A DNA stretch of 64,000 nucleotides from an uncultured Mycoplasma sp. (lineage in GTDB: Bacteria; Bacillota_I; Bacilli_A; RF39; UBA660). The stretch is from positions 1,574 through 65,573 of the forward strand of contig CAMEXD010000006.1 of assembly GCA_945947035.1 (NCBI GenBank), read 5' to 3'. The first letter of the stretch is position 1; each line of letters begins with the position of its first letter. Under the pieces are notes generated by a model. That model worked only from the letters and a program-made list of their open reading frames with translations, was not told the origin of the DNA and did no database searches. The position numbers were made by a program, and so were the translations under genes. Positions 2,898 through 59,208 of this stretch are shown in pieces.

Positions 2898-3668
2898 ATG
2901 GAATTTGTGAATATAATTCTTTTCTTTATTTTAGGAACTGTTTTAGGTAGCTTTTATAATGTAGTAGGGTTTAGATTATCTAATGATGGATCTTTAATTA
3001 ATCCGAAAAATAGTTATTGTCCCAATTGTAAAGAAAGATTAAAATGGAAAGATTTAATACCAATTTTGTCATATCTATTTTTAAAAGGTAAATGTAGATA
3101 TTGTGGTAAAAAAATATCAATATTTTATCCTGCAGTTGAGTTTTTTACAGGGGTATTATTTGCAGTTTGTTATTATTCATTTGGTTTTAGTTATGATCTT
3201 ATTATTTCACTTCTACTTGTAAGTTATTTTGCAATAGTTATTGTAAGTGATTTAAATTACTATATCATTCCTGATCAAGTAACAATTGTTATAGGAATAC
3301 TTATTTTAATAGTAAATATTCTTAAATATGGTTTTATTGGATCTTTAGGATATTTGATTTCTGGAATTATAATGTTTTTATTTATGTATTTAGTGGGAAT
3401 AATTGGAAGTTTTATGTTTAAACAAGAAGCTTTAGGAGGAGGAGACATAAAATTATTGTTTGTTTTAGGTCTTACACTTCCTCTTACTTTATCTTTTTTA
3501 GGAATAGTTTTAGCAACACTTCTTGCTTTTCCAATTTCGCTATATTTTACGATAAAAAATAAAGATAAAATAATACCATTTGGACCATTTTTAATTGCAG
3601 CTTTTTTGATACTTTATTTATCAAAAATAGATGTAAGTGTGATATATAATTTTTTTAATATAATTTAA
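2898..3668 (+). CDS. pilD: Prepilin peptidase / N-methyltransferase
   Basis: GSFYNV, SYCPNC, IPILSYLFLKGKCRYC, SDL, GGGDIKL, IPFGPF motifs. Confidence 0.95.
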   Translation: MEFVNIILFFILGTVLGSFYNVVGFRLSNDGSLINPKNSYCPNCKERLKWKDLIPILSYLFLKGKCRYCGKKISIFYPAVEFFTGVLFAVCYYSFGFSYDLIISLLLVSYFAIVIVSDLNYYIIPDQVTIVIGILILIVNILKYGFIGSLGYLISGIIMFLFMYLVGIIGSFMFKQEALGGGDIKLLFVLGLTLPLTLSFLGIVLATLLAFPISLYFTIKNKDKIIPFGPFLIAAFLILYLSKIDVSVIYNFFNII

Positions 3669-3717
3669 AAAAATAATGGTAATAATAAAAACTTCGATTA
3701 AGTTTAATCGAAGTTTT

Positions 3718-3978
3718 TTATAAATATTTTTTATATCCTTTATATTTATTATATAACTCAATTATTTTATTATATACATTAGGACTAAGCTTTTCTTTTA
3801 ATTCCATAAATATAGATGCAGGATCATTTTTTGCAATATATCTCCAATATTTTTTAATATAAAAATATATAATATCAAGTTCTTCATTAGTTAATTTTAT
3901 ATTTTGTTTATAACTAAACTTTAAAATATCTTCTTTAGTTAGTTTATTAATATATTTTTCAAGCATTTTTTCATACAT
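3718..3978 (-). CDS. Small protein, resembles DUF2624/YqfT family
   Basis: ORF track; ATG at 3978 after SD aaggtg; INKLTKEDILKFSYKQNIKLT pattern. Confidence 0.5.
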   Translation of the reverse strand: MYEKMLEKYINKLTKEDILKFSYKQNIKLTNEELDIIYFYIKKYWRYIAKNDPASIFMELKEKLSPNVYNKIIELYNKYKGYKKYL

Positions 3979-4039
3979 AATCTTCACCTTTATATTTTAT
4001 TATATGCAAGTTTTTTTGATTTTGTATCACAATAATAAT

Positions 4040-6097
4040 ATGAAAAGAATTAAAAGAAAAAAATTAAATAAAATGCGTTCAACTGATGTAAGCGATAAAA
4101 GAATAAACTTTTTAAAAGTAATATCTTTTATCTTTTTTGGCATTATCTTGGGAAGAATATTTTATCTTAATGTTTTTTATAAAGATTATTATACGATGAT
4201 TTTAAATAATAAAACTAAAATTATTGTGGAACAAGAAGATGCTCCACGTGGCAGAATACTTGATCGTAATGGTAAGGTTTTAGTAGATAATAAAGAAGTT
4301 AGAAAAATATATTATTTAAAAGACAAAAATATTACAACTAAAGAAGAAATAGAAATGTGTTATAAATTAAAAGATATTTTAGATCTTCCTTATGATAATT
4401 TACTTACTAGGAATTTAAAAGAATTTTATATTATTGTCTATGAAGAAGAAGCAAATAAAAAAATTACTTCTGAAGAATATGAAGATTTAAAAAACAGAAA
4501 ATTAACTGAAAATGAAGTGTATGAGTTAAAAATAGAAAGAATAACTAAAGAAGATTTAAGTGTTTTTAATCTTGATGATAAAAAAAGTGCTTATATTTAT
4601 TATCTTATGAATAAAGGATATTCTACTGACATGAAAACTATAAAAATAGATGCAACATATGAAGAATATGCCTATATTTCAGAAAGAATTGAAGAATTTA
4701 AAGGGTTTAATACTAAACTTGATTGGGAAAGAACTTATCCTTATGAAAATACTATAAGAAGTATTTTAGGTAGTGTTTCAGATAGTGAAACAGGAATACC
4801 AAAAGAAAAAGCAAGTTATTATTTAAGCCAAGGGTATGAATTGGATGATAGAGTAGGAATATCTGGTTTAGAAGAATATTACGATAAATATTTAAGAGGA
4901 GAAAAAGCAAAGTATCAAATAATGGAAGATGGTTCATTAGAAAAAATAAGTGATGCTAAAGCTGGTAATGATATTGTTTTATCAATAGATATTGATTTGC
5001 AGATTCAAATTGAAGATATGATGAAAGAAGAAGTTGTAAAAGCAAAAAGTGAACCTCATACTAAGTTTTATAATAGAAGTTTTGTAGTTATTCAAAATCC
5101 TAAAACAGGTGAAATATATTCTATGGCAGGAGTTCAAACCTTTAAAGAAAAAGGAAAATATGTAACTTATGATTATAGTATTGGCCCAATTGTATCAACT
5201 ATAACGCCAGGATCTGTAGTAAAAGGTGCAAGTATCATTGTTGGATATAATACGGGTGTTATAGATATTGGTACTACTATGCTTGACAGTTGCATTAAAT
5301 TTTTAAATATGCCTGAGAAATGTTCTTGGAAAAGTCTTGGTTATATAAATGATCTTGATGCTTTAAAGTGGTCTAGCAATATCTATCAATTTAAAATTGC
5401 CATGATGGTCGGAGGGCAAAGTTATAAATATAATTCAATGTTAGATCTTGATTTAAGTGCTTTTGATACTTACAGGAAGACATTTTATCAATTTGGTTTG
5501 GGAGTTAAAACAGGAATTGATTATCCAATTGAAGAAACAGGAGTAAAAGGAAAATCTATTGCATCTGATCTTTTAATAAACTATGCAATTGGCCAATATG
5601 ATACTTATACAACCCTTCAATTGTCACAATATATATCAACAATTGCCAATGATGGCTCAAGAGTAAAACCAAGATTTTTAAAAAGTGTTATTGATAGTAA
5701 TACAAATGAAGTAATATATGAATCTCCTACTATTGTTTTAAATAAAGTTGAAACTGAAGAAAAATACTTAAAAAGAGTACAAAAAGGATTTAGGTTGTGT
5801 ATTACTGGTGGAACTTGTGTTGATTATATGGGAAGTGCTTTAAAAGGTGCTGGAAAAACAGGAACAAGTGAAAGTTTTGTAGATGATGGAAGTGGTATTT
5901 ATGATCATCCTACAATGAGTAATAATTTTGTTGGTTATGCTCCATATGATGATCCTGTTATGAGTATTGCAGTATCATCACCTGATGTTTTAGATATGGA
6001 AACAGGAACTTATAGAACAGATGTTAATTATAGAATATCTAAAAAAGCATCTAATATATTTTTTTCACTCTATGATAGTAAAGGAAATAGAAAATAA
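4040..6097 (+). CDS. Class B penicillin-binding protein (PbpA/PbpH-like transpeptidase)
   Basis: N-terminal TM, APRGRILDRNG, SVVK (SxxK), SSN (SxN), KTG motifs. Confidence 0.92.
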   Translation: MKRIKRKKLNKMRSTDVSDKRINFLKVISFIFFGIILGRIFYLNVFYKDYYTMILNNKTKIIVEQEDAPRGRILDRNGKVLVDNKEVRKIYYLKDKNITTKEEIEMCYKLKDILDLPYDNLLTRNLKEFYIIVYEEEANKKITSEEYEDLKNRKLTENEVYELKIERITKEDLSVFNLDDKKSAYIYYLMNKGYSTDMKTIKIDATYEEYAYISERIEEFKGFNTKLDWERTYPYENTIRSILGSVSDSETGIPKEKASYYLSQGYELDDRVGISGLEEYYDKYLRGEKAKYQIMEDGSLEKISDAKAGNDIVLSIDIDLQIQIEDMMKEEVVKAKSEPHTKFYNRSFVVIQNPKTGEIYSMAGVQTFKEKGKYVTYDYSIGPIVSTITPGSVVKGASIIVGYNTGVIDIGTTMLDSCIKFLNMPEKCSWKSLGYINDLDALKWSSNIYQFKIAMMVGGQSYKYNSMLDLDLSAFDTYRKTFYQFGLGVKTGIDYPIEETGVKGKSIASDLLINYAIGQYDTYTTLQLSQYISTIANDGSRVKPRFLKSVIDSNTNEVIYESPTIVLNKVETEEKYLKRVQKGFRLCITGGTCVDYMGSALKGAGKTGTSESFVDDGSGIYDHPTMSNNFVGYAPYDDPVMSIAVSSPDVLDMETGTYRTDVNYRISKKASNIFFSLYDSKGNRK

Positions 6098-49993: not shown

Positions 49994-50006
49994 GGGAGGA
50001 ATTTTT

Positions 50007-52631
50007 ATGAAATACGTTTATAGTTTTAATGAAGGTAATAAAGATATGAGAAATACTCTTGGAGGAAAAGGAGCAAATCTTTGTGAAATGACTAATTTAG
50101 GTTTACCTGTTCCCAAAGGATTTATTGTTTCAACTGATGCATGTATAGATTATTATAATAATAATGGTGCAATTAGTGATGAAATAATAAATGAAATCTA
50201 TGAAAAGCTTGAAGAATTAGAAAAAACAACAGGTAAAACTTTAGGTGATTCTAAAAACCCACTTCTTTTATCAGTTAGAAGTGGAGCAAGAAGTAGTATG
50301 CCTGGAATGATGGATACTGTTTTAAATTTAGGAATGAATGATGAAGTATGTGACTTTTTTCCTAATAAAAGATTTTCTTATGACAGCTATAGAAGATTTA
50401 TTCAAATGTATGCTGATGTAGTTATGGGTTTTCCTAAAGAGTCTTTCGAAGGTTTATTTGATAAACTAAAACAAGAAAAAAACGTTAAATACGATACTGA
50501 TTTAACTGAAGAAGATTTAAAAGAAGTAATAACTAGATACAAAGAAGAATATCAAAGATTAGCAAAAACTAGCTTTCCAACTGATCCAAAAGAACAATTA
50601 ATATCTGCCATAAAAGCAGTATTTAAAAGTTGGAATAATGAAAGAGCAATAACTTATAGAAGACTAAATGACATTCCATCAAGTTGGGGAACTGCAGTAA
50701 ATGTTCAAGAAATGGTATTTGGAAATAAAAACAATAATAGTGCAACAGGTGTTGCTTTTACAAGAAATCCTGCAACAGGAGAAAAAGTATTATACGGAGA
50801 ATACCTTGTTAATGCTCAAGGAGAAGATGTCGTAGCAGGTATTCGTACACCTAAATCAATTATTAATTTAAAACAAGAATTTCCAGATTGCTATAATGAA
50901 TTTACTAAAATTGCAGATACTCTAGAAAAACATTATCATGATATGCAAGATATGGAATTTACAATTGAAGATAATAAACTTTATATCTTACAAACTAGAA
51001 ATGGTAAAAGAACAGGAACAGCTGCAGTTAAAATTGCTATGGATTTATTAAAAGAGAATATGATAGATGAAAAAGAAGCACTTTTAATGGTTGATGCTAA
51101 AACACTTGATCAATTGCTTCATAAAACTTTTAATAAAGAACTTTTAAAAAATGCTAAAAAAATAGCTGAAGGGCTTCCAGCTTCACCTGGATCTGCTTAT
51201 GGAAAAATTTGTTTTGATGCAAAACATATAAAAGATCTTGCAAGTAATAATGAAAAAAATCTTATTTTAGTAAGAGATGAAACTTCTCCTGAAGATATCG
51301 AAGGAATAAACATTGCAAGTGGTATTTTAACCCTTAGGGGAGGAACAACATCACATGCTGCAGTTGTTGCTCGTGGTATGGGAACTTGTTGTGTTTGTGG
51401 TTGTAGTTCTTTAAAAATTGATTATGAAAACAAAATTTTAGAGACAGATTCTGGTATTATTTTACATGAAGACGATTATATTTCACTTGATGGAACAACT
51501 GGTTATGTTTATTTAGGAAAAATAGAAGTAGAAGATCCCATAATTGAAGATGACTTTAAAAAGCTTTTAGATTTAACAGATAAATATAAAAGTATGGAAG
51601 TAAGAGCCAATTCTGAAACACTAAAAGATAGCAAAACTGCCCTTAGTTTTGGAGCATTAGGAATTGGTTTATGTAGAACAGAGCACATGTTCTTTGAAAA
51701 TGAACGTATTTTTAACTTTAGAAAAATGATACTTTCAAAAAACAAAGAAGAAAGATGTGATGCATTAAATAAAATTCTTCCTTATCAAATAGAAGATTTT
51801 TATAATTTATTTAAAGTAATGAATGAATTAAGCGTTAATATAAGACTTCTTGATCCACCACTTCATGAATTTTTACCAAAAAAAGAAGAAGAAAAAATTG
51901 AGTTAGCAAAAGCTTTAAATATAAGTTATGAAGATATAAATAATAGAATAAATAGTCTAAAAGAATTTAATCCAATGATGGGACATAGAGGTATAAGGCT
52001 TGGTGTTACTTATCCAGAAATTGTTGTTATGCAAACTAAAGCTATAATAGAAGCAGCAATTAAAGCAGCAAAAGAAAATATTGCTGTAGAACCAGAAATA
52101 ATGATACCTTTAGTATGTAATAAAAAAGAATTACAGTATGTTAAAACTGTTATAAAAGAAACTGCAGATAAAATCATCAAAGAAGAAAAAACAAATATCT
52201 CTTATAAAATTGGTACAATGATTGAAATACCAAGAGCAGCAATTATTTCAAAAGATATAGCAAGTGATGTAGAATTCTATTCATTTGGAACTAATGATTT
52301 AACTCAGATGACTTACGGTTTTTCAAGAGATGATGCCGAAAAGTTTTTACCTTCTTACTATCAAAAACAAATTTTTGAATTTGATCCATTTGTTAGAGTT
52401 GATGAAGAAGGAGTTGGAACTTTAATTAAAAATGCTATAAAAGATGCCAAAGAAGTAAATAAAGATATAAAAATAGGTGTTTGTGGTGAACATGCAGGAG
52501 ATCCAAAAAGCATTGAATTCTTTGCTAAAGTTGGAGTAGATTATGTTTCATGTAGTCCATATCGTGTTCCTATTGCAAGACTTGCTGTTGCACAAGCTGC
52601 AATTAAAGCGAGTGAAAAGGATAACAAATAG
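50007..52631 (+). CDS. ppdK: Pyruvate, phosphate dikinase
   Basis: GGKGANL, SMPGMMDTVLN, GGTTSHAAVVAR, GLCRTEHMF, GVCGEH. Confidence 0.97.
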   Translation: MKYVYSFNEGNKDMRNTLGGKGANLCEMTNLGLPVPKGFIVSTDACIDYYNNNGAISDEIINEIYEKLEELEKTTGKTLGDSKNPLLLSVRSGARSSMPGMMDTVLNLGMNDEVCDFFPNKRFSYDSYRRFIQMYADVVMGFPKESFEGLFDKLKQEKNVKYDTDLTEEDLKEVITRYKEEYQRLAKTSFPTDPKEQLISAIKAVFKSWNNERAITYRRLNDIPSSWGTAVNVQEMVFGNKNNNSATGVAFTRNPATGEKVLYGEYLVNAQGEDVVAGIRTPKSIINLKQEFPDCYNEFTKIADTLEKHYHDMQDMEFTIEDNKLYILQTRNGKRTGTAAVKIAMDLLKENMIDEKEALLMVDAKTLDQLLHKTFNKELLKNAKKIAEGLPASPGSAYGKICFDAKHIKDLASNNEKNLILVRDETSPEDIEGINIASGILTLRGGTTSHAAVVARGMGTCCVCGCSSLKIDYENKILETDSGIILHEDDYISLDGTTGYVYLGKIEVEDPIIEDDFKKLLDLTDKYKSMEVRANSETLKDSKTALSFGALGIGLCRTEHMFFENERIFNFRKMILSKNKEERCDALNKILPYQIEDFYNLFKVMNELSVNIRLLDPPLHEFLPKKEEEKIELAKALNISYEDINNRINSLKEFNPMMGHRGIRLGVTYPEIVVMQTKAIIEAAIKAAKENIAVEPEIMIPLVCNKKELQYVKTVIKETADKIIKEEKTNISYKIGTMIEIPRAAIISKDIASDVEFYSFGTNDLTQMTYGFSRDDAEKFLPSYYQKQIFEFDPFVRVDEEGVGTLIKNAIKDAKEVNKDIKIGVCGEHAGDPKSIEFFAKVGVDYVSCSPYRVPIARLAVAQAAIKASEKDNK

Positions 52632-52896
52632 TTCGCATTATCATACCTGCTTAAGTCTTATAAATAAAGGTTTTAAGAAAATATTAATAAATTAAAACAA
52701 TCTATAAAAATAGGTAAATTTGCTAAAATTAGACTGAAATTTTAAAAATTTTGGTCTTTTTTTGATAAAAATAGCGCTTTTTGTGGCAAAGATTTAGTAC
52801 TTGAAAAATGGTATAAAATTAAATTAAAATAACCATATATTTAATTTTTATGATAATATATAATTAGCCAAAAAAGTCTTGGATTGGAGGTTAATT

Positions 52897-53886
52897 ATGG
52901 ACAATAAAAATTTAATGCTAAGACCAATGATGTTAATATCTGATATGGTTCTATATATGAAAAGTAAAAATATTAAATTTAAAAAATGTTCAGAGAAAGA
53001 TGCTGAAATATATTTGAGAGAAAACAATAATTATTATAATGTAACATCTTATAAAAATAATTTTATTAAATATCAATGTGGTGAACAACAAGGAAAGTAT
53101 ATAGATTTAGATTTTGCATATTTAAAAGATTTATCCATTATAGATTATAGGACCAGATTAGTATTATTTAAAATGATAATTAATATAGAACATTATTTAA
53201 AAATAAGAATATTAAATACTATAGAAGATATAATTGATGAAGATGGTTACAAAATAGTTAATCTATATTTAGAAAAAGATTTTAATGACAAAGAGCGTCC
53301 TAAAAGAGTTCATGACAGTATTAGAAAAAAAGTTACAAATGAATATTATCAGAAAATATTTTCTAAATATGATCTAGACAAGGATAGCAAAATAGAAAAT
53401 ATACCCATTTGGGAATTTTTAGAAATTATAACATTTGGGGAATTAATTAATTTCTTTGACTTTTTTACAAGTTATTATAAATTAGACGATAATAAATATA
53501 TATTTATTTTAAGAGAAGTAAATAAACTTAGAAATGCAGTAGCACATAATTCTTGTGTTTTATCTGAATTAGATAAAAAGGATAATACACATAGGGTTGA
53601 TACATTAGTTATTAATTATTTAAAAGATTGTGTAATAGGAAAAGAAAATAGAAATACAAAACTTTCTAATTCAAGAATAAGACAAATTACCTATACTTTA
53701 TATATATTTAATATTATAGTAAGTAGTGATGGGGTAAAAAATAATGTTAAACATGATATTACAAAATTATTTTATGGAAGAATAATTTTAAATGGAAAGT
53801 ACTATAATAATAATGAACTATTGAAATCCATATATAATTATTTTGATAAAATTATCGAAAAAAATTATAAAGAAAATTTGGACTAA
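52897..53886 (+). CDS. Abi family (AbiD/AbiF) HEPN-domain protein
   Basis: NYYNVTSYK, Y.D...R..L...I..IE, WEFLEIITFGEL, LRNAVAHN (RxxxxH); lies in an AT-rich island. Confidence 0.85.
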   Translation: MDNKNLMLRPMMLISDMVLYMKSKNIKFKKCSEKDAEIYLRENNNYYNVTSYKNNFIKYQCGEQQGKYIDLDFAYLKDLSIIDYRTRLVLFKMIINIEHYLKIRILNTIEDIIDEDGYKIVNLYLEKDFNDKERPKRVHDSIRKKVTNEYYQKIFSKYDLDKDSKIENIPIWEFLEIITFGELINFFDFFTSYYKLDDNKYIFILREVNKLRNAVAHNSCVLSELDKKDNTHRVDTLVINYLKDCVIGKENRNTKLSNSRIRQITYTLYIFNIIVSSDGVKNNVKHDITKLFYGRIILNGKYYNNNELLKSIYNYFDKIIEKNYKENLD

Positions 53887-53890
53887 TAGT

Positions 53891-53919
53891 TTGACATAGA
53901 AAAATATTTATGATATATT
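53891..53919 (+). promoter_or_regulatory. SigA promoter immediately after the abi stop codon
   Basis: TTGACA-17-TATATT with extended TG. Confidence 0.8.
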
Positions 53920-53923
53920 ATCT

Positions 53924-53990
53924 ATGCAAGGAAAAAATGTTAAATCATTTTTGTAAGGGGTTTATTTTCGGATAGAGCCCTATTTTTTTA
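53924..53990 (+). ncRNA. Candidate ~65-nt Abi-associated sRNA (putative RNA antitoxin)
   Basis: Promoter, AAAAAUG/CAUUUUU hairpin, then a GGGG..UUCG..CCCU terminator with U tract; no ORF. Confidence 0.65.
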
Positions 53991-54170
53991 ATTAAAAATT
54001 TAATTTAATAAAAAGTATAAATGATATTTACTTAATGATAATTAAAGTTTAATAATATTATATTAAAAAAATGCCCTTCAAACATTACGATGGTACAAGC
54101 TACAATTAAAACTGAAATAATTGGATAATATTATTTTAATAAACTTAATATAATATAAATTTATAACTAT

Positions 54171-54199
54171 TTGATATTTTCATAAAAATATAATATATT
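54171..54199 (+). promoter_or_regulatory. SigA-like promoter for the repeat array
   Basis: TTGATA-17-TATATT. Confidence 0.6.
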
Positions 54200-54222
54200 T
54201 ATATAGCTACTTAAAAAGTGGT

Positions 54223-54328
54223 GAAAATGTTTTTCGCTTCTGGATGGTGCGAATAATAAATGATTCCAGGCGACAATGTTTTTCGCTTCCAGGTGGTGCG
54301 ACTAATAAATGATCCTGGTTGAAAATGT
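54223..54328 (+). ncRNA. 2.2 x 49-nt tandem pseudoknot repeats, CptI-like type III antitoxin RNA
   Basis: Units 54223-54271, 54272-54320, partial 54321-54328; 39/49 identical; stems UCGC/GCGA and CUGGA/UCCAG vs CCAGG/CCUGG. Confidence 0.8.
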
Positions 54329-54333
54329 AGAAT

Positions 54334-54360
54334 AACTTCATCATATGATGGAGTTTTTTT
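54334..54360 (+). terminator. Intrinsic terminator closing the repeat array
   Basis: aacttcatc-atat-gatggagtt followed by a T tract. Confidence 0.85.
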
Positions 54361-54531
54361 GTTTTATGATATATTATTTCTACATGTTTATATTATACAA
54401 GATATATTTATAAAACATTTAACAAATAAGAAAATTACCTCTGTTGTCTTTAATAAAAATAAAAAATATATTATAATATTAACAAGTCTTAAAAAATTTA
54501 AATCTTATTAAAAAGAGGTGACTTAATAACC

Positions 54532-56046
54532 GTGGCAAATAAATTTGTTCCATTATTGTTTGCAATTATTTTTACTTTTTGGACAGTTAGAGTATATTAT
54601 AAGTTATACGATAGTAAAACAAGAAGATATATTTTAATTATTGGCATCTTAATTATTTTTTGGATGCTAATTAGAATTATAAAAGGAGTTACAATTGATA
54701 TCAAGATAGAAAGAATATGTTGGTATTTATATTATTTACCACTTATATTTATTCCAAGTCTTTTTTATATTTGTTCTAATTCGTTATCAAATAAAATGAA
54801 TGAAAAAAGAAAAATACTGATATATATAGTTTCTTCAATATTATTAATATTAGTTTTAACTAATGATTTTCACCAATTTGTTTTTAAATTTAATCATGGA
54901 ATAAATTTTCATAATAATTATAATCATTATATTGGTTATTACTTAATTTTTATTTGGATATTTTATTTATTTGGTGGTGGCATGATAAGTTTAGCAATAA
55001 ATAGATTAAAAATTACGAAAGATTTAAAAGCATTTTTGCCTTTAATAGTTTTATTACTTGGTTTAATTTATAATTATCTTAATATTATGGATGTTCCATA
55101 TATTAGGCGAATGAACATGTCAATTGTTAATAGTGTTTTGATCTGTTTAGGAATTGAACTTGCTTTTTATTTAGAATTAATACCAAATAATAAAAAATAT
55201 ATTCAAAAGTTTTCCAATTCAAATTTGGATATGGTAATTGTATCACTAGATGGAAAAACAAAATATACTACTTGTTCATTTAAAACAATTCCAAGTTTTA
55301 TTTTAGATGATATTAAAAAAAATCAAGTAAAAAATACTTATAAAATGAAACATGTAGTTTATAATGTTAAGAAAAATAAAGATAATTATGTAATACTAAA
55401 AAAAGATTTAACCAATATTTATAAATTAGAGGATGAAATAAAAAGCCAAAAAAAGAAATTATTAAAACAACAAGAAAGCATGAAATTAGAAGAAAAAACA
55501 AAAAAGGAATTATATGAAATAAAAATAAGAAAAGAAACAATTAGTAGAGTTGAAAAAAAATTAAATGAAAAAAGATTAGAAGCTAAAAATATTGTAATGA
55601 AGAATGATGTTAAAAAAGAAGATTTAGAAAAAGTAAAAAGAATTATAGTATATAGCAAAAAGAAAAGCATGCTTATTATTTCTGAAATGAATAATGAAGT
55701 ATACAATGAAGAAAGTATAAAAATACTACTAAATGAACTAATAACTAGTATGCCAAGTTTAAATATAGAAGGTTTAGTAGTTGTAAAAAATAAAATGACT
55801 ATTAAAGGTAGTATTATGTCTTACTTATATGATATCGTCTATGAACTTATGGAAAATTCTAAAAGTAAAACTATAATGATTTTTGTATTTAGTAATAATA
55901 ATATAGTTAAATTAAAAGCAATTGTTGGTACAAGTGAAAAAATAAAAGATAATTTAAAATTAGATTCTAGTATTAAAATAAAAGAAAATGTTTATGATAC
56001 AGACACTGAACTAGAATTTACTATAAAGGATAGTGATAACTTATGA
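54532..56046 (+). CDS. 7TM sensor-kinase-like subunit lacking H-box and ATPase motifs
   Basis: Seven TM (CWYLYYLPLIFIP), PAS-like region and coiled coil; no His/N/G boxes recognisable. Confidence 0.7.
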   Translation: MANKFVPLLFAIIFTFWTVRVYYKLYDSKTRRYILIIGILIIFWMLIRIIKGVTIDIKIERICWYLYYLPLIFIPSLFYICSNSLSNKMNEKRKILIYIVSSILLILVLTNDFHQFVFKFNHGINFHNNYNHYIGYYLIFIWIFYLFGGGMISLAINRLKITKDLKAFLPLIVLLLGLIYNYLNIMDVPYIRRMNMSIVNSVLICLGIELAFYLELIPNNKKYIQKFSNSNLDMVIVSLDGKTKYTTCSFKTIPSFILDDIKKNQVKNTYKMKHVVYNVKKNKDNYVILKKDLTNIYKLEDEIKSQKKKLLKQQESMKLEEKTKKELYEIKIRKETISRVEKKLNEKRLEAKNIVMKNDVKKEDLEKVKRIIVYSKKKSMLIISEMNNEVYNEESIKILLNELITSMPSLNIEGLVVVKNKMTIKGSIMSYLYDIVYELMENSKSKTIMIFVFSNNNIVKLKAIVGTSEKIKDNLKLDSSIKIKENVYDTDTELEFTIKDSDNL

Positions 56047-57161
56047 GATTACTACTAATATTAACGATTGTAGCAACTATATTACAAGCTTTTAGAACAT
56101 CTATTTATTATCTAAGAAAAGATATATCTTATATAAAAAAAATAATAGAAATAGTAATTTTAATTTTGATGATAATATTAGACTATTTTAATTTAACAGA
56201 AAATATTTTAAAATTAACGTTTTATTTTGCTCTTATATTATCCTTTTATATTTTTGTTTCATTTATATATGAAAAGTTATTTAAAAATGATTATATATCA
56301 ATATTATCAGTAAAAAATGGAATTGATATGTCTGATACAGCAATAATGTTTTTGGATGATGATAACATAATATTAATGAATAACGTGATGAGTGATATTT
56401 TAAAAGAATTAAACATTCAAAAAGATTATATAAATAGCTTAATAAAAAAATGTACTGAAAATATTGATGATGATTATTTATTAAAGTGTAATAATAGGGT
56501 ATTTTTATTAAAAATATTTAATAATAAAGAAGTTTCATTGATTGATGTAACTAAGCTATATAAATTACAAGAACAAGAAAAATTACAAAATAAAAAAATA
56601 AAAGAAAATAACGAAAAAATATTAGATACAATAAATAATATAGAAAAAATAGAAAAAGCTAAAAGTTTATTAAAAATAAAAAATGAATATCATGATATAA
56701 TAGGTCATCGTCTTGCTTTGTTTTCAAAATACTTAGAAAATGACACTAAAGATATTAAAAGTATATTATTCTTATTAGATAGTATTTATGAGGATTTTAA
56801 TTCTAAATTATCTAGTACTTGGAAGTTGAAAAATTTAGTTAAGATGTATCAAGTAATTGGTATAAACATAATTATAAAAGGTGGACTTCCACAAGATGAA
56901 AAAGTTGCTAATATATTTTTTGAAATAATAAGAGAATCAATTACTAATGCTGTTATTCATGCAGATAGTAAAAATATTAAAGTAATAATAAAAAAGTACT
57001 TTGATAGAACTAATATGATTATAACAAATGATGGTAAAAAGCCAAATCATATTATTTATGAGAATGAAGGTATAAAAGGAATGAGAAGGAAACTAACTTT
57101 AATAAATGGAAGTTTAAATGTTTCTACTGAAAATGATTTTGTTTTAAAAATTGTTGTATAA
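56043..57161 (+). CDS. HisKA_3-type sensor histidine kinase
   Basis: EYHDIIGH H-box, RESITNAVIHA N-box, TNDG, GIKGMRRK; overlaps the upstream gene (ATGA-like coupling). Confidence 0.82.
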   Translation: MRLLLILTIVATILQAFRTSIYYLRKDISYIKKIIEIVILILMIILDYFNLTENILKLTFYFALILSFYIFVSFIYEKLFKNDYISILSVKNGIDMSDTAIMFLDDDNIILMNNVMSDILKELNIQKDYINSLIKKCTENIDDDYLLKCNNRVFLLKIFNNKEVSLIDVTKLYKLQEQEKLQNKKIKENNEKILDTINNIEKIEKAKSLLKIKNEYHDIIGHRLALFSKYLENDTKDIKSILFLLDSIYEDFNSKLSSTWKLKNLVKMYQVIGINIIIKGGLPQDEKVANIFFEIIRESITNAVIHADSKNIKVIIKKYFDRTNMIITNDGKKPNHIIYENEGIKGMRRKLTLINGSLNVSTENDFVLKIVV

Positions 57162-57187
57162 AAAAGAAAATCACTAAACTGATTTTC

Positions 57188-57820
57188 TTATTTTTTAATA
57201 TTTGGAATAATATATCCATTACTTACACAAAATATAGTAAGTTTAGATATACTGTCAAATCCCATTTTATTAAGAATATTAGTAATATAGTTTTTTAGTG
57301 TTCCAGAAGTAATGTTTAACTCTTTTGCGATATCCTCTCTATCCATGGCTTCACATAATAATTTTATTATTTTAATTTCTTTAGCTGAAAGATTTTTTAA
57401 TTTTTCATTTTCATCATTATAAATATAATTATCTGGAAATAAAGTATATCCATTAAGTATTTGATTAATACTTGTAAGAAGGGAATAACTATCAATATCT
57501 TTATAAATTAATCCGTCCAAATTATATTTTTTGGCATTATCCAAAAATGTTATTTCTGGTATTCCAGTAATAGCTAAAATTTTAACTTTTTTGCCATATT
57601 TTTCTTTTACTTCTTTGCCATAATCTATACCATTAGCACCATCTTTGGTAACAACATCTGTAAGAATTAAATCTGGAGTATATTTTTCGTATAAAGTCAT
57701 CATATCTTTAGCGCTAGTACAAGTACAGACTATGTCATAAAAATTAGATAGCATTTTTTGCATCATATTATTAAGAAGAGCTTGATCTTCAATAATCATA
57801 ATTTTTTTCTTTATAGGCAT
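57188..57820 (-). CDS. NarL/LuxR family response regulator
   Basis: IIEDQ, PDLILTDV, LSAKEIKII..GTLKNYITNILNKMG. Confidence 0.92.
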   Translation of the reverse strand: MPIKKKIMIIEDQALLNNMMQKMLSNFYDIVCTCTSAKDMMTLYEKYTPDLILTDVVTKDGANGIDYGKEVKEKYGKKVKILAITGIPEITFLDNAKKYNLDGLIYKDIDSYSLLTSINQILNGYTLFPDNYIYNDENEKLKNLSAKEIKIIKLLCEAMDREDIAKELNITSGTLKNYITNILNKMGFDSISKLTIFCVSNGYIIPNIKK

Positions 57821-57892
57821 AAAATCACCTCAAATTATAGTTATATTATATCATATTTTTTAAATTAAAGTTATTTTTTAATTAAGGAAACT

Positions 57893-57938
57893 ATGACTTT
57901 TGTCATATTTCTTTTAATAAAACTATGACTTTTTTCAT
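57893..57938. promoter_or_regulatory. Two ATGAC-N4-GTCAT operator-like palindromes 32 bp apart
   Basis: ATGACTTTTGTCAT at 57893-57906; ATGACTTTTTTCAT at 57925-57938. Confidence 0.65.
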
Positions 57939-57987
57939 CTATTATAGATTATAAAAATAATATATAATATTATCGGGAGGAGATATT

Positions 57988-59208
57988 ATGTCTAAAAAAG
58001 ACGAAAACAAAGAAGTTGATACTTCAAAAGAAAAAAATAAGAAAAAAATTATTCTAATAGTAGTTGGTGTTATACTATTTGCAATTATTCTATTCTTATT
58101 GTGGTTTTTTAACCGTAAATTTGATGTTACCTTTGATTTAAACAATGGTACTGAAAATGAAGTAGTACAAGTTAAATATAATAATGTACTAAATGAAAAA
58201 GACATCAAAACAAAAGAAGATCTAGGAGATTTATTTATTGCTTGGTATGAAGTAATTGATGTAAAAGATAATGAAGATGTCCTAGATGATGAAAAATTTG
58301 ATTTTACAACAAAAATAAAGAAGGATACTAAATTAAAAGCTGTTTATGAAAAACCTGTAGAAAAAATTACAATTACTTTTGATTCAAGAGGTGGTTCAAA
58401 AGTTAATAGTATAACTATTACTAAAGGAACAGAACTTAATTTACCAAGTAATCCTACTTATTCTGGATATAAGTTTGTTACTTGGGAAACAAAAGACGGA
58501 ACACCAGTATATAATAAAGCATTATTAAGCGAAGACATAACACTTTATGCAAAATGGGAAAAAATAGAAGTAAAGAAAGAAGAAACAATTAGTTTATCAG
58601 TTGATAATAAATTTATACATCGAAGAGGAACAAAAACTGTTGCTAAAGTAAAAGCAAATGTTCAAAATTCAAGTAATAGTAAAGTTACTTATTCTTTAAG
58701 TAGTACAGCTTGTGCTAAAATTAATAGTTCAACAGGTGTTATAACAGCAAAAACTGAATCAGAAATAGTAGGAGCAGATATCCAAATTTGTGAAGCAGGA
58801 GAAACCGTTACAGTAACTGGTAAACTTCCAAGTGGTAAAAGTGCAAGTGTAAAAGTGACTCTTGAAAAAGATTTATATGCACATTTTACAGGTTCTGAAA
58901 ATAATAATAGTTTTGTTGGATTAGCATCATCAAAAAATTTCTATCATGCTGCAGAACAAGAATTTAGTATTACTGCTAATCAAAGTGTTAGTTGGAATGC
59001 AAGATGCGTTGATGCTGTTGATTATGCTAGTAGAACATGTACATATATAGGAAAAACTAGTTCAACAGCAACAACATTTAAAGGTACTTTAGCTGCTAAT
59101 TATACTTCTAATAGTTCAACATCAACAGCTTCAGCAGATATTAAAGTAACTTTCACTACTGCAGCAGGACAATCATTAACTGCAACAATTAAACAACGTA
59201 TTAATTAA
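57988..59208 (+). CDS. N-terminally anchored surface protein with InlB B-repeats and an Ig-like domain
   Basis: TM; VTFDLNNG and ITFDSRGGS..P.NPTYSGYKFVTW...LYAKW repeats; Ser/Thr-rich C-terminus. Confidence 0.8.
   Translation: MSKKDENKEVDTSKEKNKKKIILIVVGVILFAIILFLLWFFNRKFDVTFDLNNGTENEVVQVKYNNVLNEKDIKTKEDLGDLFIAWYEVIDVKDNEDVLDDEKFDFTTKIKKDTKLKAVYEKPVEKITITFDSRGGSKVNSITITKGTELNLPSNPTYSGYKFVTWETKDGTPVYNKALLSEDITLYAKWEKIEVKKEETISLSVDNKFIHRRGTKTVAKVKANVQNSSNSKVTYSLSSTACAKINSSTGVITAKTESEIVGADIQICEAGETVTVTGKLPSGKSASVKVTLEKDLYAHFTGSENNNSFVGLASSKNFYHAAEQEFSITANQSVSWNARCVDAVDYASRTCTYIGKTSSTATTFKGTLAANYTSNSSTSTASADIKVTFTTAAGQSLTATIKQRIN

What the first reader, a model, noticed from the sequence alone, without database searches (positions are those of the whole stretch)
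54171..54360. Orphan CptI-like pseudoknot repeat array (2.2 x 49 nt) with three compensatory base-pair swaps and no toxin gene
Seen: promoter, two 49-nt units plus an 8-nt partial unit, then a terminator. Of the 10 differences between units, 6 form three compensatory pairs in one stem (CUGGA/UCCAG vs CCAGG/CCUGG). A second stem, UCGC/GCGA, interleaves to give an H-type pseudoknot. Units are joined at A-rich GA(A/C)AAUGU. Established: type III antitoxins (ToxI, CptI, TenpI) are short tandem pseudoknot repeats followed by a terminator and then the toxin. The AUAAAUG..GGUUGAAAA tail matches my recollection of CptI. Here no CptN-like ORF follows; the next CDS is a sensor protein ~170 bp later. Inference: a stand-alone antitoxin that could neutralise incoming CptN toxins in trans, or a relic still held under structural selection.
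Basis: partly seen in the sequence, partly recalled or inferred. Interest (0 to 1): 0.85.

Follow-up and report, generated by a model that had tools for sequence, protein, structure and literature searches.

The report
Toxin-less CptI antitoxin RNA array
This is the RNA-antitoxin half of a known toxin-antitoxin pair (CptIN) left behind after its toxin gene was deleted; this is common in these uncultured gut bacteria, and the array is most likely a fresh remnant rather than a new stand-alone system.

Summary
Window 54226-54333 carries two 49-nt units plus a 10-nt partial unit, between a promoter (54171-54199) and a terminator (54334-54365). The units differ at 10 positions, and 6 of these form three compensatory pairs.

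The array is a genuine CptI antitoxin:
- In 45 related loci, homologous arrays are followed 60-127 nt later by an intact 155-aa protein, shown for one of them to match CptN (PDB 4RMO, E=1.5e-20).
- Both pseudoknot stems covary across 55 distinct units.
- The unit aligns with E. rectale CptI.

The toxin is absent from the window and from the assembly, which is only 71% complete.

The three swaps say nothing about selection on the orphan. The same 98 nt occur unchanged in a locus with an intact toxin.

Across 401 genomes of the family, 88 carry units and 29 of those have no cptN trace. No intact toxin was found where an array was shown to be missing. This fits toxin-first decay.

Orphans as a class are decaying. 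Only 8 of 31 keep both a good promoter and a good terminator, against 39 of 44 toxin-linked arrays. The same orphan in a sister species has lost its -35 box and one unit.

Verdict: a recently orphaned relic, probably still transcribed. A trans-acting anti-CptN role is possible but unproven.

The parts
54095..54128 (+). Relic of the last ~10 codons and stop of an older ppdK 3' end. It marks the original junction between ppdK and cptI.
   Evidence: It matches the true ppdK end plus the cptI promoter region of G005:C23 (L020 5010-5330 against window 54095-54401, 76.5%). It also resembles the present ppdK tail at 52592-52609. In G005:C23, G016 and G023 the array directly follows ppdK.
54171..54199 (+). 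Promoter of the array: -35 TTGATA, 17-nt spacer, -10 TATATT.
   Evidence: Found. It is conserved as TTGACA-17-TATATT in the toxin-linked arrays aligned and listed; 41 of 44 toxin-linked arrays score at least 10 of 12. The window copy has one -35 change, C to T.
54206..54222 (+). 5' leader hairpin of the precursor RNA (GCUACUU-AAA-AAGUGGU).
   Evidence: Present in the minimum-free-energy fold. An equivalent hairpin with a different sequence (GCAC-UGAAAA-GUGU and others) lies at the same place in relatives.
54226..54274 (+). CptI unit 1 (49 nt). Stem 1 is 54234-54237 with 54249-54252. Stem 2 is 54240-54244 with 54265-54269. The A-rich loop is AUAAUAAAUGAU.
   Evidence: Covariance-model hit of 70.5 bits. 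Covariation.
54275..54323 (+). CptI unit 2 (49 nt). Stem 2 is CCAGG/CCUGG, and the 3' tail is GGUUGAA.
   Evidence: Covariance-model hit of 71.5 bits. Identical to units in G016, G005, G361, G257 and G410.
54324..54333 (+). Partial third unit (AAUGUAGAAU). It supplies the 3' junction of unit 2.
   Evidence: Sequence. The same partial unit is present in the related arrays listed.
54334..54365 (+). Intrinsic terminator: a 9-bp stem, a 4-nt loop and a U tract.
   Evidence: hairpin -11.3 kcal/mol. Conserved in related arrays.
54363..54380 (+). Relic of the segment between terminator and toxin, including an extended -10-like box (UAUGAUAUAUU). Homology to intact cptIN loci ends here, so this is the left edge of the toxin deletion.
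   Evidence: Alignments. In intact loci the box reads TGTGATATATT and is followed by GGAG and then an ATG start.

Best explanation
The array is the antitoxin half (cptI) of a type III toxin-antitoxin locus of the CptIN family. It belongs to a 49-nt-repeat subfamily that is abundant in uncultured gut Bacilli with genomes of about 1 Mb.

History of the locus. It originally lay directly after ppdK in the order promoter, two pseudoknot units, terminator, cptN. The cptN reading frame was later deleted. An Abi_2 cassette was inserted into the end of ppdK, but the order of the two events is not known.

What remains. The transcription unit looks intact and should give an RNA of about 155 nt that folds into two H-type pseudoknots. 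With no CptN present, this RNA would be neither cleaved into units nor bound.

Why arrays outlive toxins. Losing the antitoxin before the toxin is lethal, whereas losing the toxin first is harmless. Decay therefore runs toxin-first and leaves arrays behind. These arrays then erode by losing promoter, terminator and units.

Shown here: family membership, absence of the toxin, the deletion's left edge, and the class-wide decay of orphans. Inferred: that the array is transcribed, and that it has no current function.
For: (1) Family membership. In 45 of the 80 arrays I classified, an intact 155-aa ORF starts 60-127 nt after the last unit. One such ORF matches CptN of PDB 4RMO over its full length, E=1.5e-20.

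(2) Both stems covary, and the unit aligns with CptI of E. rectale.

(3) Recent origin. The window's 98 nt of units are identical to those of an intact locus in G222. In a tree of 70 arrays the window sits among toxin-linked arrays on a short branch. Orphans are scattered across the tree: 17 changes are needed for 22 orphans, against a shuffled mean of 19.1. This means many independent and recent losses.

(4) A complete decay series is seen.
- One nonsense codon in G016, whose array region is 93% identical to the window's.
- Multi-stop fragments in G211, G255, G158, G247 and G256.
- Full deletion in the window.
- In sister species G005, the same orphan with an otherwise nearly identical intergenic region (5 substitutions in about 630 aligned bases) has lost 40 nt including the -35 box, and exactly one unit.

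(5) Asymmetry. Of 401 family genomes, 88 have units and 29 of those have no cptN trace. No full-length intact toxin appeared in a genome without units; the complete or near-complete ones in such genomes lie at contig ends.

(6) Orphans are eroding.
- Promoter score of at least 10/12 together with a terminator of -8 kcal/mol or better: 39 of 44 linked arrays against 8 of 31 orphans, Fisher p=3e-8.
- Terminal branches are longer: median 0.31 against 0.15, p=0.014.
- The terminator region is more diverged: 0.375 against 0.254, p=0.0008.
- Single-unit arrays are common among orphans (10 of 31) and rare among linked arrays.
Against: - The window copy is one of only 8 orphans that keep both a good promoter and a good terminator, so it may still be expressed and capable of acting.
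- Detected orphan units are as well paired as linked ones, 8.87 against 8.88 of 9 pairs. The search only finds well-preserved units, so this comparison is biased.
- In one genus, two species share the same orphan locus (G010, G398). There the array plus terminator is 95% identical against 85-87% for flanking intergenic DNA (Fisher p=0.007), and one G-C to A-U compensatory change occurred between them. This hints at selection in that genus.
- The assembly is 71% complete, so a cptN elsewhere cannot be excluded.
- The thresholds used were chosen after seeing the data.
Confidence: 0.68

Rival explanations
1. The orphan array is kept because it works alone. Its constitutively made pseudoknot RNA would bind and neutralise CptN toxins arriving on phages, plasmids or islands. 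This would be anti-addiction or anti-abortive-infection immunity in trans.
For: - The units are identical to those of an active-looking locus, so the RNA should bind that toxin.
- The single-stranded parts (AAUGUU, UG, AUAA and AU in the loop) are invariant across the subfamily while the stems vary. Cross-neutralisation between alleles is therefore plausible.
- The cassettes look horizontally mobile. The array region, promoter to terminator, is 87-93% identical across genera whose ppdK is only about 69% identical, and the units themselves are identical or nearly so.
- cptIN with 49-nt units occurs on predicted viral contigs.
- 29 of 88 unit-bearing genomes lack any toxin trace.
- The G010/G398 orphan is conserved above its flanks and shows a compensatory change.
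- About 9 intact loci carry an extra toxin-less array beside them.
- Precedent: the pseudo-ToxI of phage PhiTE (PMC3475682, listed; its content is from my own knowledge).
Against: - Only 8 of 31 orphans keep both a good promoter and a good terminator, against 39 of 44 linked arrays.
- Orphans are scattered tips rather than old clades.
- The identical locus in G005 has lost its -35 box and one unit.
- Toxin-first decay predicts many orphans without any function.
- No benefit to the host from disarming an incoming defence toxin has been shown.
Confidence: 0.17
2. The array is not truly orphan. An intact cptN lies in the unassembled 29% of the genome, and this array serves it in trans as a spare antitoxin source.
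For: - The assembly is 70.9% complete, in 42 contigs.
- Sister species G005 has both this orphan and an intact cptIN next to ppdK.
- Extra arrays beside intact loci are common.
Against: - In G000, ppdK runs directly into the Abi_2 gene, so the G005 arrangement is absent.
- There is no CptN trace anywhere in 1.17 Mb.
- Most of the 29 toxin-less genomes (19 of the 28 others) are over 90% complete, so toxin-less carriers are real.
Confidence: 0.07
3. The array belongs to the neighbouring Abi_2 (AbiD/F-type HEPN) gene, forming a hybrid RNA-antitoxin system.
For: - An Abi_2 gene (52879-53886; Pfam E=1.6e-23) lies 340 nt upstream on the same strand.
- AbiF of C. difficile is held in check by an RNA with two repeated motifs (PMC12373285).
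- In G333 the same Abi_2 cassette sits directly after a single CptI unit.
Against: - The RNA is identical to arrays that serve CptN.
- Only 2 of 71 loci examined have Abi_2 nearby, and the gene order differs between them.
- A relic of the ppdK end separates Abi_2 from the array, so they arrived separately.
- G005 keeps the array while nearly all of Abi_2 is gone.
- There is no abiF motif (RF03085) at E up to 10 in 53900-54600, which includes the array, and none in the window at the gathering score.
- Abi_2 has its own small RNA cassette, which travels with it.
Confidence: 0.03
4. The array is a cis-regulatory leader (tandem riboswitch or attenuator) for the downstream 7TM sensor operon.
For: The array is on the same strand as, and about 170 nt upstream of, the sensor gene at 54532.
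Against: - No Rfam family matches.
- A strong terminator ends the array, and the sensor gene has its own promoter-like site at 54450-54477.
- The same array precedes unrelated genes elsewhere.
- Among the 7 same-genus genomes searched, the sensor gene occurs only in G005.
Confidence: 0.02

Closest known systems
CptIN of Eubacterium (Agathobacter) rectale (PDB 4RMO; Rao et al. 2015, PMC4627078) and the cptIN family of Blower et al. 2012 (PMC3401426)
   Same: - Tandem RNA repeats between a promoter and a terminator.
- Each unit is an H-type pseudoknot with an A-rich loop (AUAAAUG) and a GGUUGA tail.
- About 2.2 copies.
- In sister loci the partner is a CptN homologue.
   Different: - The toxin gene is absent here.
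- The unit is 49 nt, one more than the published range of 40-48, against 45 nt in E. rectale.
- The stem sequences are unrelated.
cptIN loci with truncated toxins (Bryantella formatexigens and others; Blower et al. 2012)
   Same: Full repeat sets and terminators are kept while the toxin is shortened to 45-101 aa. This is the same toxin-first decay.
   Different: Here nothing of the toxin remains. That survey started from toxin proteins, so it would not have picked up arrays with no toxin at all; the word 'orphan' does not occur in its text.
Pseudo-ToxI of Pectobacterium phage PhiTE (Blower et al. 2012, PLoS Genet, PMC3475682)
   Same: A type III antitoxin-like repeat array with no toxin of its own, which can neutralise a toxin in trans (from my own knowledge of that paper; the paper is listed).
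   Different: That array is carried by a phage as an escape device, and its activity was shown experimentally. This one is chromosomal, lies between ppdK and a sensor operon, and no activity has been shown.
AbiF-RCd22 of Clostridioides difficile (Saunier et al. 2025, PMC12373285)
   Same: A small RNA with two repeated structured motifs and a terminator that neutralises an RNase-type toxin. An Abi_2 gene is a neighbour here.
   Different: RCd22 lies upstream of abiF and carries the abiF motif RF03085. This array has no such motif, lies downstream of Abi_2, and is homologous to CptN-linked arrays.

Membership tests
CptI (RNA antitoxin of the CptIN type III family) | Short tandem direct repeats, about 2-3 copies of 40-48 nt (Blower 2012) | tested here: met
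   2.2 copies of 49 nt. This is one nt above the published range. Nearly all related arrays have 2 full units plus a partial one.
CptI (RNA antitoxin of the CptIN type III family) | Own promoter upstream and an intrinsic terminator after the repeats | tested here: met
   Promoter at 54171-54199 and terminator at 54334-54355. Both are conserved in relatives.
CptI (RNA antitoxin of the CptIN type III family) | Each unit folds as an H-type pseudoknot with a long A-rich loop | tested here: met
   Covariation supports both crossing stems: 97% of cells paired, and 7 of 9 pairs show changes on both sides. The loop is AUAAUAAAUGAU. The three-dimensional fold was not tested.
CptI (RNA antitoxin of the CptIN type III family) | Sequence likeness to a proven CptI | tested here: met
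   Global alignment to the 45-nt CptI of E. rectale. Unit 2 scores 34 against a shuffled mean of 12.4 (sd 5.3), reached by 0 of 2000 shuffles. Unit 1 is reached by 8 of 2000. This is a weak test taken alone.
CptI (RNA antitoxin of the CptIN type III family) | Homologous arrays are partnered with a CptN-family toxin | tested here: met
   45 of 80 classified arrays are followed by an intact 155-aa protein. One of them matches 4RMO chain A at E=1.5e-20.
Complete type III toxin-antitoxin system (CptIN) | A toxin gene directly downstream of the terminator | tested here: not met
   No CptN-like frame in the window or in the assembly. Homology to intact loci stops before the toxin's ribosome-binding site.
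Complete type III toxin-antitoxin system (CptIN) | The RNA is cut into units by the toxin and neutralises it | not testable with these tools
   Needs co-expression and RNA analysis.
AbiF-type RNA antitoxin (abiF motif, RF03085) | Match to the abiF motif, and a position upstream of the abi gene | tested here: not met
   No Rfam match at E up to 10 in 53900-54600 and none at the gathering score in the window. The array lies downstream of Abi_2.
Known riboswitch or cis-regulatory leader | Match to a curated RNA family, and conserved linkage to the regulated gene | tested here: not met
   No Rfam match. The downstream genes differ between loci.
Phage-borne antitoxin mimic (pseudo-ToxI type) | Carried on a phage or prophage genome | tested here: not met
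   The neighbours are ppdK, Abi_2, a 7TM sensor and a response regulator. There are no phage genes within the region examined, 50000-59200.

The most novel reading that the evidence does not exclude
Toxin-less CptI arrays are a maintained class of stand-alone RNA 'vaccines' in gut Bacilli. By constitutively making pseudoknots with the invariant toxin-contact nucleotides, they would disarm CptN toxins brought in by mobile cptIN cassettes or phages. The window copy still has its promoter, both units and its terminator, and would be an active example.
Probability: 0.15. Interest if true: 0.7.

Novelty: new member of a known kind. Interest (0 to 1): 0.35.

Why it matters
Taken alone, this locus is an ordinary relic of a known system. 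The family-wide picture is more useful. In one family of uncultured gut Bacilli, about a third of the genomes that carry CptI units have no toxin at all. A full decay series is visible, from one nonsense codon to complete deletion to erosion of the array itself.

This is a clear natural illustration that RNA-antitoxin systems decay toxin-first. The 2012 toxin-first survey of type III loci started from the toxin protein, so it would have missed such arrays.

It also gives a simple, testable question: does any orphan array still protect against incoming CptN? The window copy and the G010/G398 locus are good candidates for that test.

Tried and rejected
- Rfam at gathering threshold and at E up to 10 gave nothing for the array, only a chance LhrC hit at 20 bits on the opposite strand.
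- Pfam has no model for the toxin. PADLOC gave only a weak AbiQ hit, E=0.003.
- A fuzzy regular-expression scan over the whole window timed out and was replaced by a covariance model.
- I looked for an alternative, non-CptN toxin downstream of orphan arrays. The downstream genes are unrelated housekeeping genes such as ppaC, mutS, an ABC ATPase and a MiaB-like gene, so this was rejected. Two loci have a small membrane peptide or an unknown ORF in the toxin position (L040, L031), but the contigs end there.
- I tried to map the right edge of the deletion. Window 54366-54535 matches only G005:C82, and the sensor gene is absent from the other same-genus genomes. The right edge therefore stays unmapped.
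- The minus-strand 45-aa ORF over the array (54207-54344) has no Pfam match. The compensatory changes in the stems point to an RNA, so I discounted it.

Full report
**What is in the sequence.**
Window 54220-54328 is a tandem repeat of period 49 with 2.2 copies. In register, unit 1 is 54226-54274, unit 2 is 54275-54323, and a partial unit AATGTAGAAT follows. A promoter-like site, TTGATA-17-TATATT, lies at 54171-54199. The region's only terminator-like site is 54334-54355 plus a U run. A small hairpin at 54206-54222 precedes unit 1.

The two units differ at exactly 10 positions. Six of these turn CUGGA/UCCAG into CCAGG/CCUGG, which is three compensatory pairs. A second stem, UCGC/GCGA, crosses the first to give an H-type pseudoknot.

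**What it is.**
Rfam has no match. BLAST against 60 related genomes found homologous arrays in at least ten of them. In several loci the array and its terminator are followed by an ORF beginning M-x-x-x-x-G-Y-[LI]-Y-H-I-K-D. One such 155-aa protein matches the CptN toxin of PDB 4RMO over its full length, E=1.5e-20. Pfam has no model for it.

The 45-nt CptI repeat of E. rectale can be read from a primer in PMC4627078. It has the same order of parts: a 5' tail AAGUUU, stem 1, stem 2, an A-rich loop AUAUAAAUG, and a tail GGUUGA. It aligns with unit 2 better than any of 2000 shuffles.

On 21 and then 55 distinct units, both stems covary. Overall 97% of cells are paired. All five pairs of stem 2 and two of the four pairs of stem 1 show changes on both sides. 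Slid controls give 29-53% paired. The array is therefore a member of the CptI family, in a subfamily with 49-nt units. The published range is 40-48 nt and 1.9-3.4 copies.

The hosts are uncultured gut Bacilli or 'Tenericutes' genomes assembled from metagenomes. Record titles include Clostridium sp. CAG:914, CAG:302 and CAG:628, and Candidatus Onthousia. In one-genome-per-species data, 379 loci encode a relative of the toxin.

**The toxin is missing.**
No CptN-like frame follows the array. Neither tblastn nor a profile of four toxins finds anything in the 1.17-Mb assembly. The assembly is only 71% complete.

Against the closest intact loci (G222, G419, G386), homology runs from upstream of the -35 box through the leader, both units, the terminator and an extended -10-like box (TGTGATATATT). 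It stops about where their ribosome-binding site begins. The right edge could not be mapped.

**History of the locus.**
Window 54095-54128 is a relic of the last ~10 codons of a ppdK gene, followed by the cptI promoter region. This is the arrangement seen next to the real ppdK end in G005:C23. In G016, G023 and G005 the array directly follows ppdK.

In the window, a roughly 1.5-kb segment lies between the present ppdK end and the relic. It carries a replacement ppdK tail, an Abi_2 gene (Pfam E=1.6e-23) and a small RNA cassette. The array therefore belongs to an older arrangement in which it lay directly after ppdK, and it is now separated from ppdK by the Abi_2 segment. This agrees with earlier notes of this scan on islands inserted into the end of ppdK.

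**Relic or working orphan?**

*The compensatory swaps.* They do not bear on this question. The window's 98 nt of units are identical to those of G222:C18, which has an intact toxin.

*Family survey.* With a covariance model I searched 401 genomes of the family, and 88 have units. A toxin profile finds traces in 68 genomes. Of the unit-bearing genomes, 29 have no toxin trace, and most of these are over 90% complete. About a dozen more have only broken toxins. Examples are one TAA at codon 26 in G016, whose array region is 93% identical to the window's, and multi-stop fragments in G211, G255, G158, G247 and G256. Full-length or near-full-length toxins in genomes without detected units lie at contig ends (G063, G241), apart from an N-terminally truncated one in G295, which I did not fetch. 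This asymmetry is what toxin-first decay predicts.

*Classified arrays.* I fetched 71 loci and classified 80 arrays:

| Class | Arrays |
|---|---|
| Followed by an intact toxin | 45 |
| Broken toxin | 3 |
| Orphan | 30 |
| Cut by a contig end | 4 |

The automatic call placed two arrays among the linked and broken classes although their toxin hit belongs to the next cassette. I counted both as orphans in the later comparisons.

Orphans lie beside unrelated housekeeping genes, and no alternative toxin is conserved next to them.

*Tree.* In a tree of 70 two-unit arrays, orphans are scattered among toxin-linked arrays. Seventeen changes are needed for 22 orphans, against a shuffled mean of 19.1. 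The window sits on a short branch among linked arrays. Losses are therefore many, independent and mostly recent.

*Erosion of orphans as a class.*

| Measure | Toxin-linked | Orphan | Test |
|---|---|---|---|
| Promoter at least 10/12 and terminator -8 kcal/mol or better | 39 of 44 | 8 of 31 | p=3e-8 (thresholds chosen after seeing the data) |
| Median terminal branch length | 0.15 | 0.31 | p=0.014 |
| Divergence of terminator region from nearest linked array | 0.254 | 0.375 | p=0.0008 |

Ten of the 31 orphans have a single unit.

*Sister species.* G005 holds the same orphan locus. Its intergenic region is otherwise nearly identical (5 substitutions in about 630 aligned bases). It carries two repeat-mediated deletions: one removes the -35 box and spacer, and the other removes exactly one unit.

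**Points in favour of function.**
- The window copy is one of the 8 orphans that keep both signals.
- Detected orphan units are as well paired as linked ones, 8.87 against 8.88 of 9, though detection is biased toward intact units.
- In genus g4, G010 and G398 share one orphan locus. There the array plus terminator is 95% identical against 85-87% for flanking intergenic DNA (p=0.007), with one G-C to A-U compensatory change.
- About nine intact loci carry a second, toxin-less array beside them.
- cptIN with 49-nt units occurs on predicted viral contigs, so incoming toxins are plausible.

**Other readings.**
*Abi_2 partnership.* This is unlikely. The RNA is the CptN-type RNA. A ppdK relic separates the two modules. 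G005 keeps the array after losing nearly all of Abi_2. Abi_2 travels with its own small RNA. No abiF motif is present (PMC12373285).

*Leader of the sensor operon.* This is contradicted by the terminator, by the sensor gene's own promoter, and by the different downstream genes at other loci.

**Verdict.**
This is a genuine CptI array whose toxin was recently deleted. It is a relic that probably still gives an RNA of about 155 nt with no partner in this genome (confidence about 0.68). A trans-acting protective role is possible (about 0.15-0.17) and can be tested directly by a rescue assay.

The locus itself is a new member of a known kind. The frequency of toxin-less arrays in this bacterial family is the more notable result.

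The literature I could search describes truncated toxins with full arrays and includes the paper on phage pseudo-ToxI. I found no survey of chromosomal toxin-less type III arrays. That search covers only open-access text.

Noticed in passing
window 52879-53990: An Abi_2 (AbiD/F-type) gene is followed 5 nt after its stop by a strong promoter (TTGACA-17-TG-TATATT, 53891-53919), a short structured RNA and a terminator-like end near 53990. The gene plus RNA recur as one block (83% identical) in G333 (L045), where the gene is frameshifted. In G005 the RNA cassette survives although all but the last ~60 nt of the gene are gone. This parallels the toxin-first decay seen for cptIN. No abiF motif was found.
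   Followed up: partly
window 52592-52631 and 54095-54128: The end of ppdK is duplicated. The present tail (…AQAAIKASEKDNK*) and an older relic (…QATIKTEIIG*) bracket the Abi_2 segment, as if cassettes insert into the last ~10-11 codons of ppdK and bring a replacement tail. There is no integrase nearby. This matches earlier notes of this scan.
   Followed up: partly
L022, L053, L058, L059, L063, L077, L079, L084, L085: About nine intact cptIN loci have a second, toxin-less CptI array directly upstream or downstream of the toxin. In G023 the extra copy differs from the first by 3 of 99 nt, and two of these form a compensatory G-C to A-U change in stem 1. These may be stacked old cassettes or spare antitoxin sources.
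   Followed up: partly
window 54363-54377; relatives in alignment A4: A conserved extended -10-like box (TGTGATATATT / TATGATATATT) lies between the terminator and the toxin's ribosome-binding site. The toxin may therefore have a weak promoter of its own, in addition to terminator read-through.
   Followed up: no
L045 (G333:C3), reverse strand 3533-4808: The order is ppdK, then a single 5'-truncated CptI unit with its terminator, then the Abi_2 cassette in the position where cptN would be. The same two modules occur as in the window but in the opposite order, which fits a shared insertion hot spot.
   Followed up: partly
L088, L089, L090 (IMG/VR contigs): A more distant cptIN subfamily (toxin 44% identical) also has 49-nt units and lies on predicted viral contigs. 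In L090 the toxin frame is cut short after about 30 codons.
   Followed up: no
L040 (G298:C76) and L031 (G195:C22): In the toxin position after otherwise normal arrays lie a 37-aa hydrophobic peptide (MKKEVKKNNKTIKLYEAIFFGVCILLFVFMIFRIWWW) in L040 and an unrelated ORF (MKNSVTLLPADTYIVINKSL…) in L031. Both contigs end shortly after, so I could not tell whether these are alternative toxins.
   Followed up: no
window 54532-57161: Among the 7 same-genus genomes searched, the 7TM sensor gene downstream of the array is found only in G005 (99% identical). The sensor operon therefore looks like accessory DNA too.
   Followed up: no
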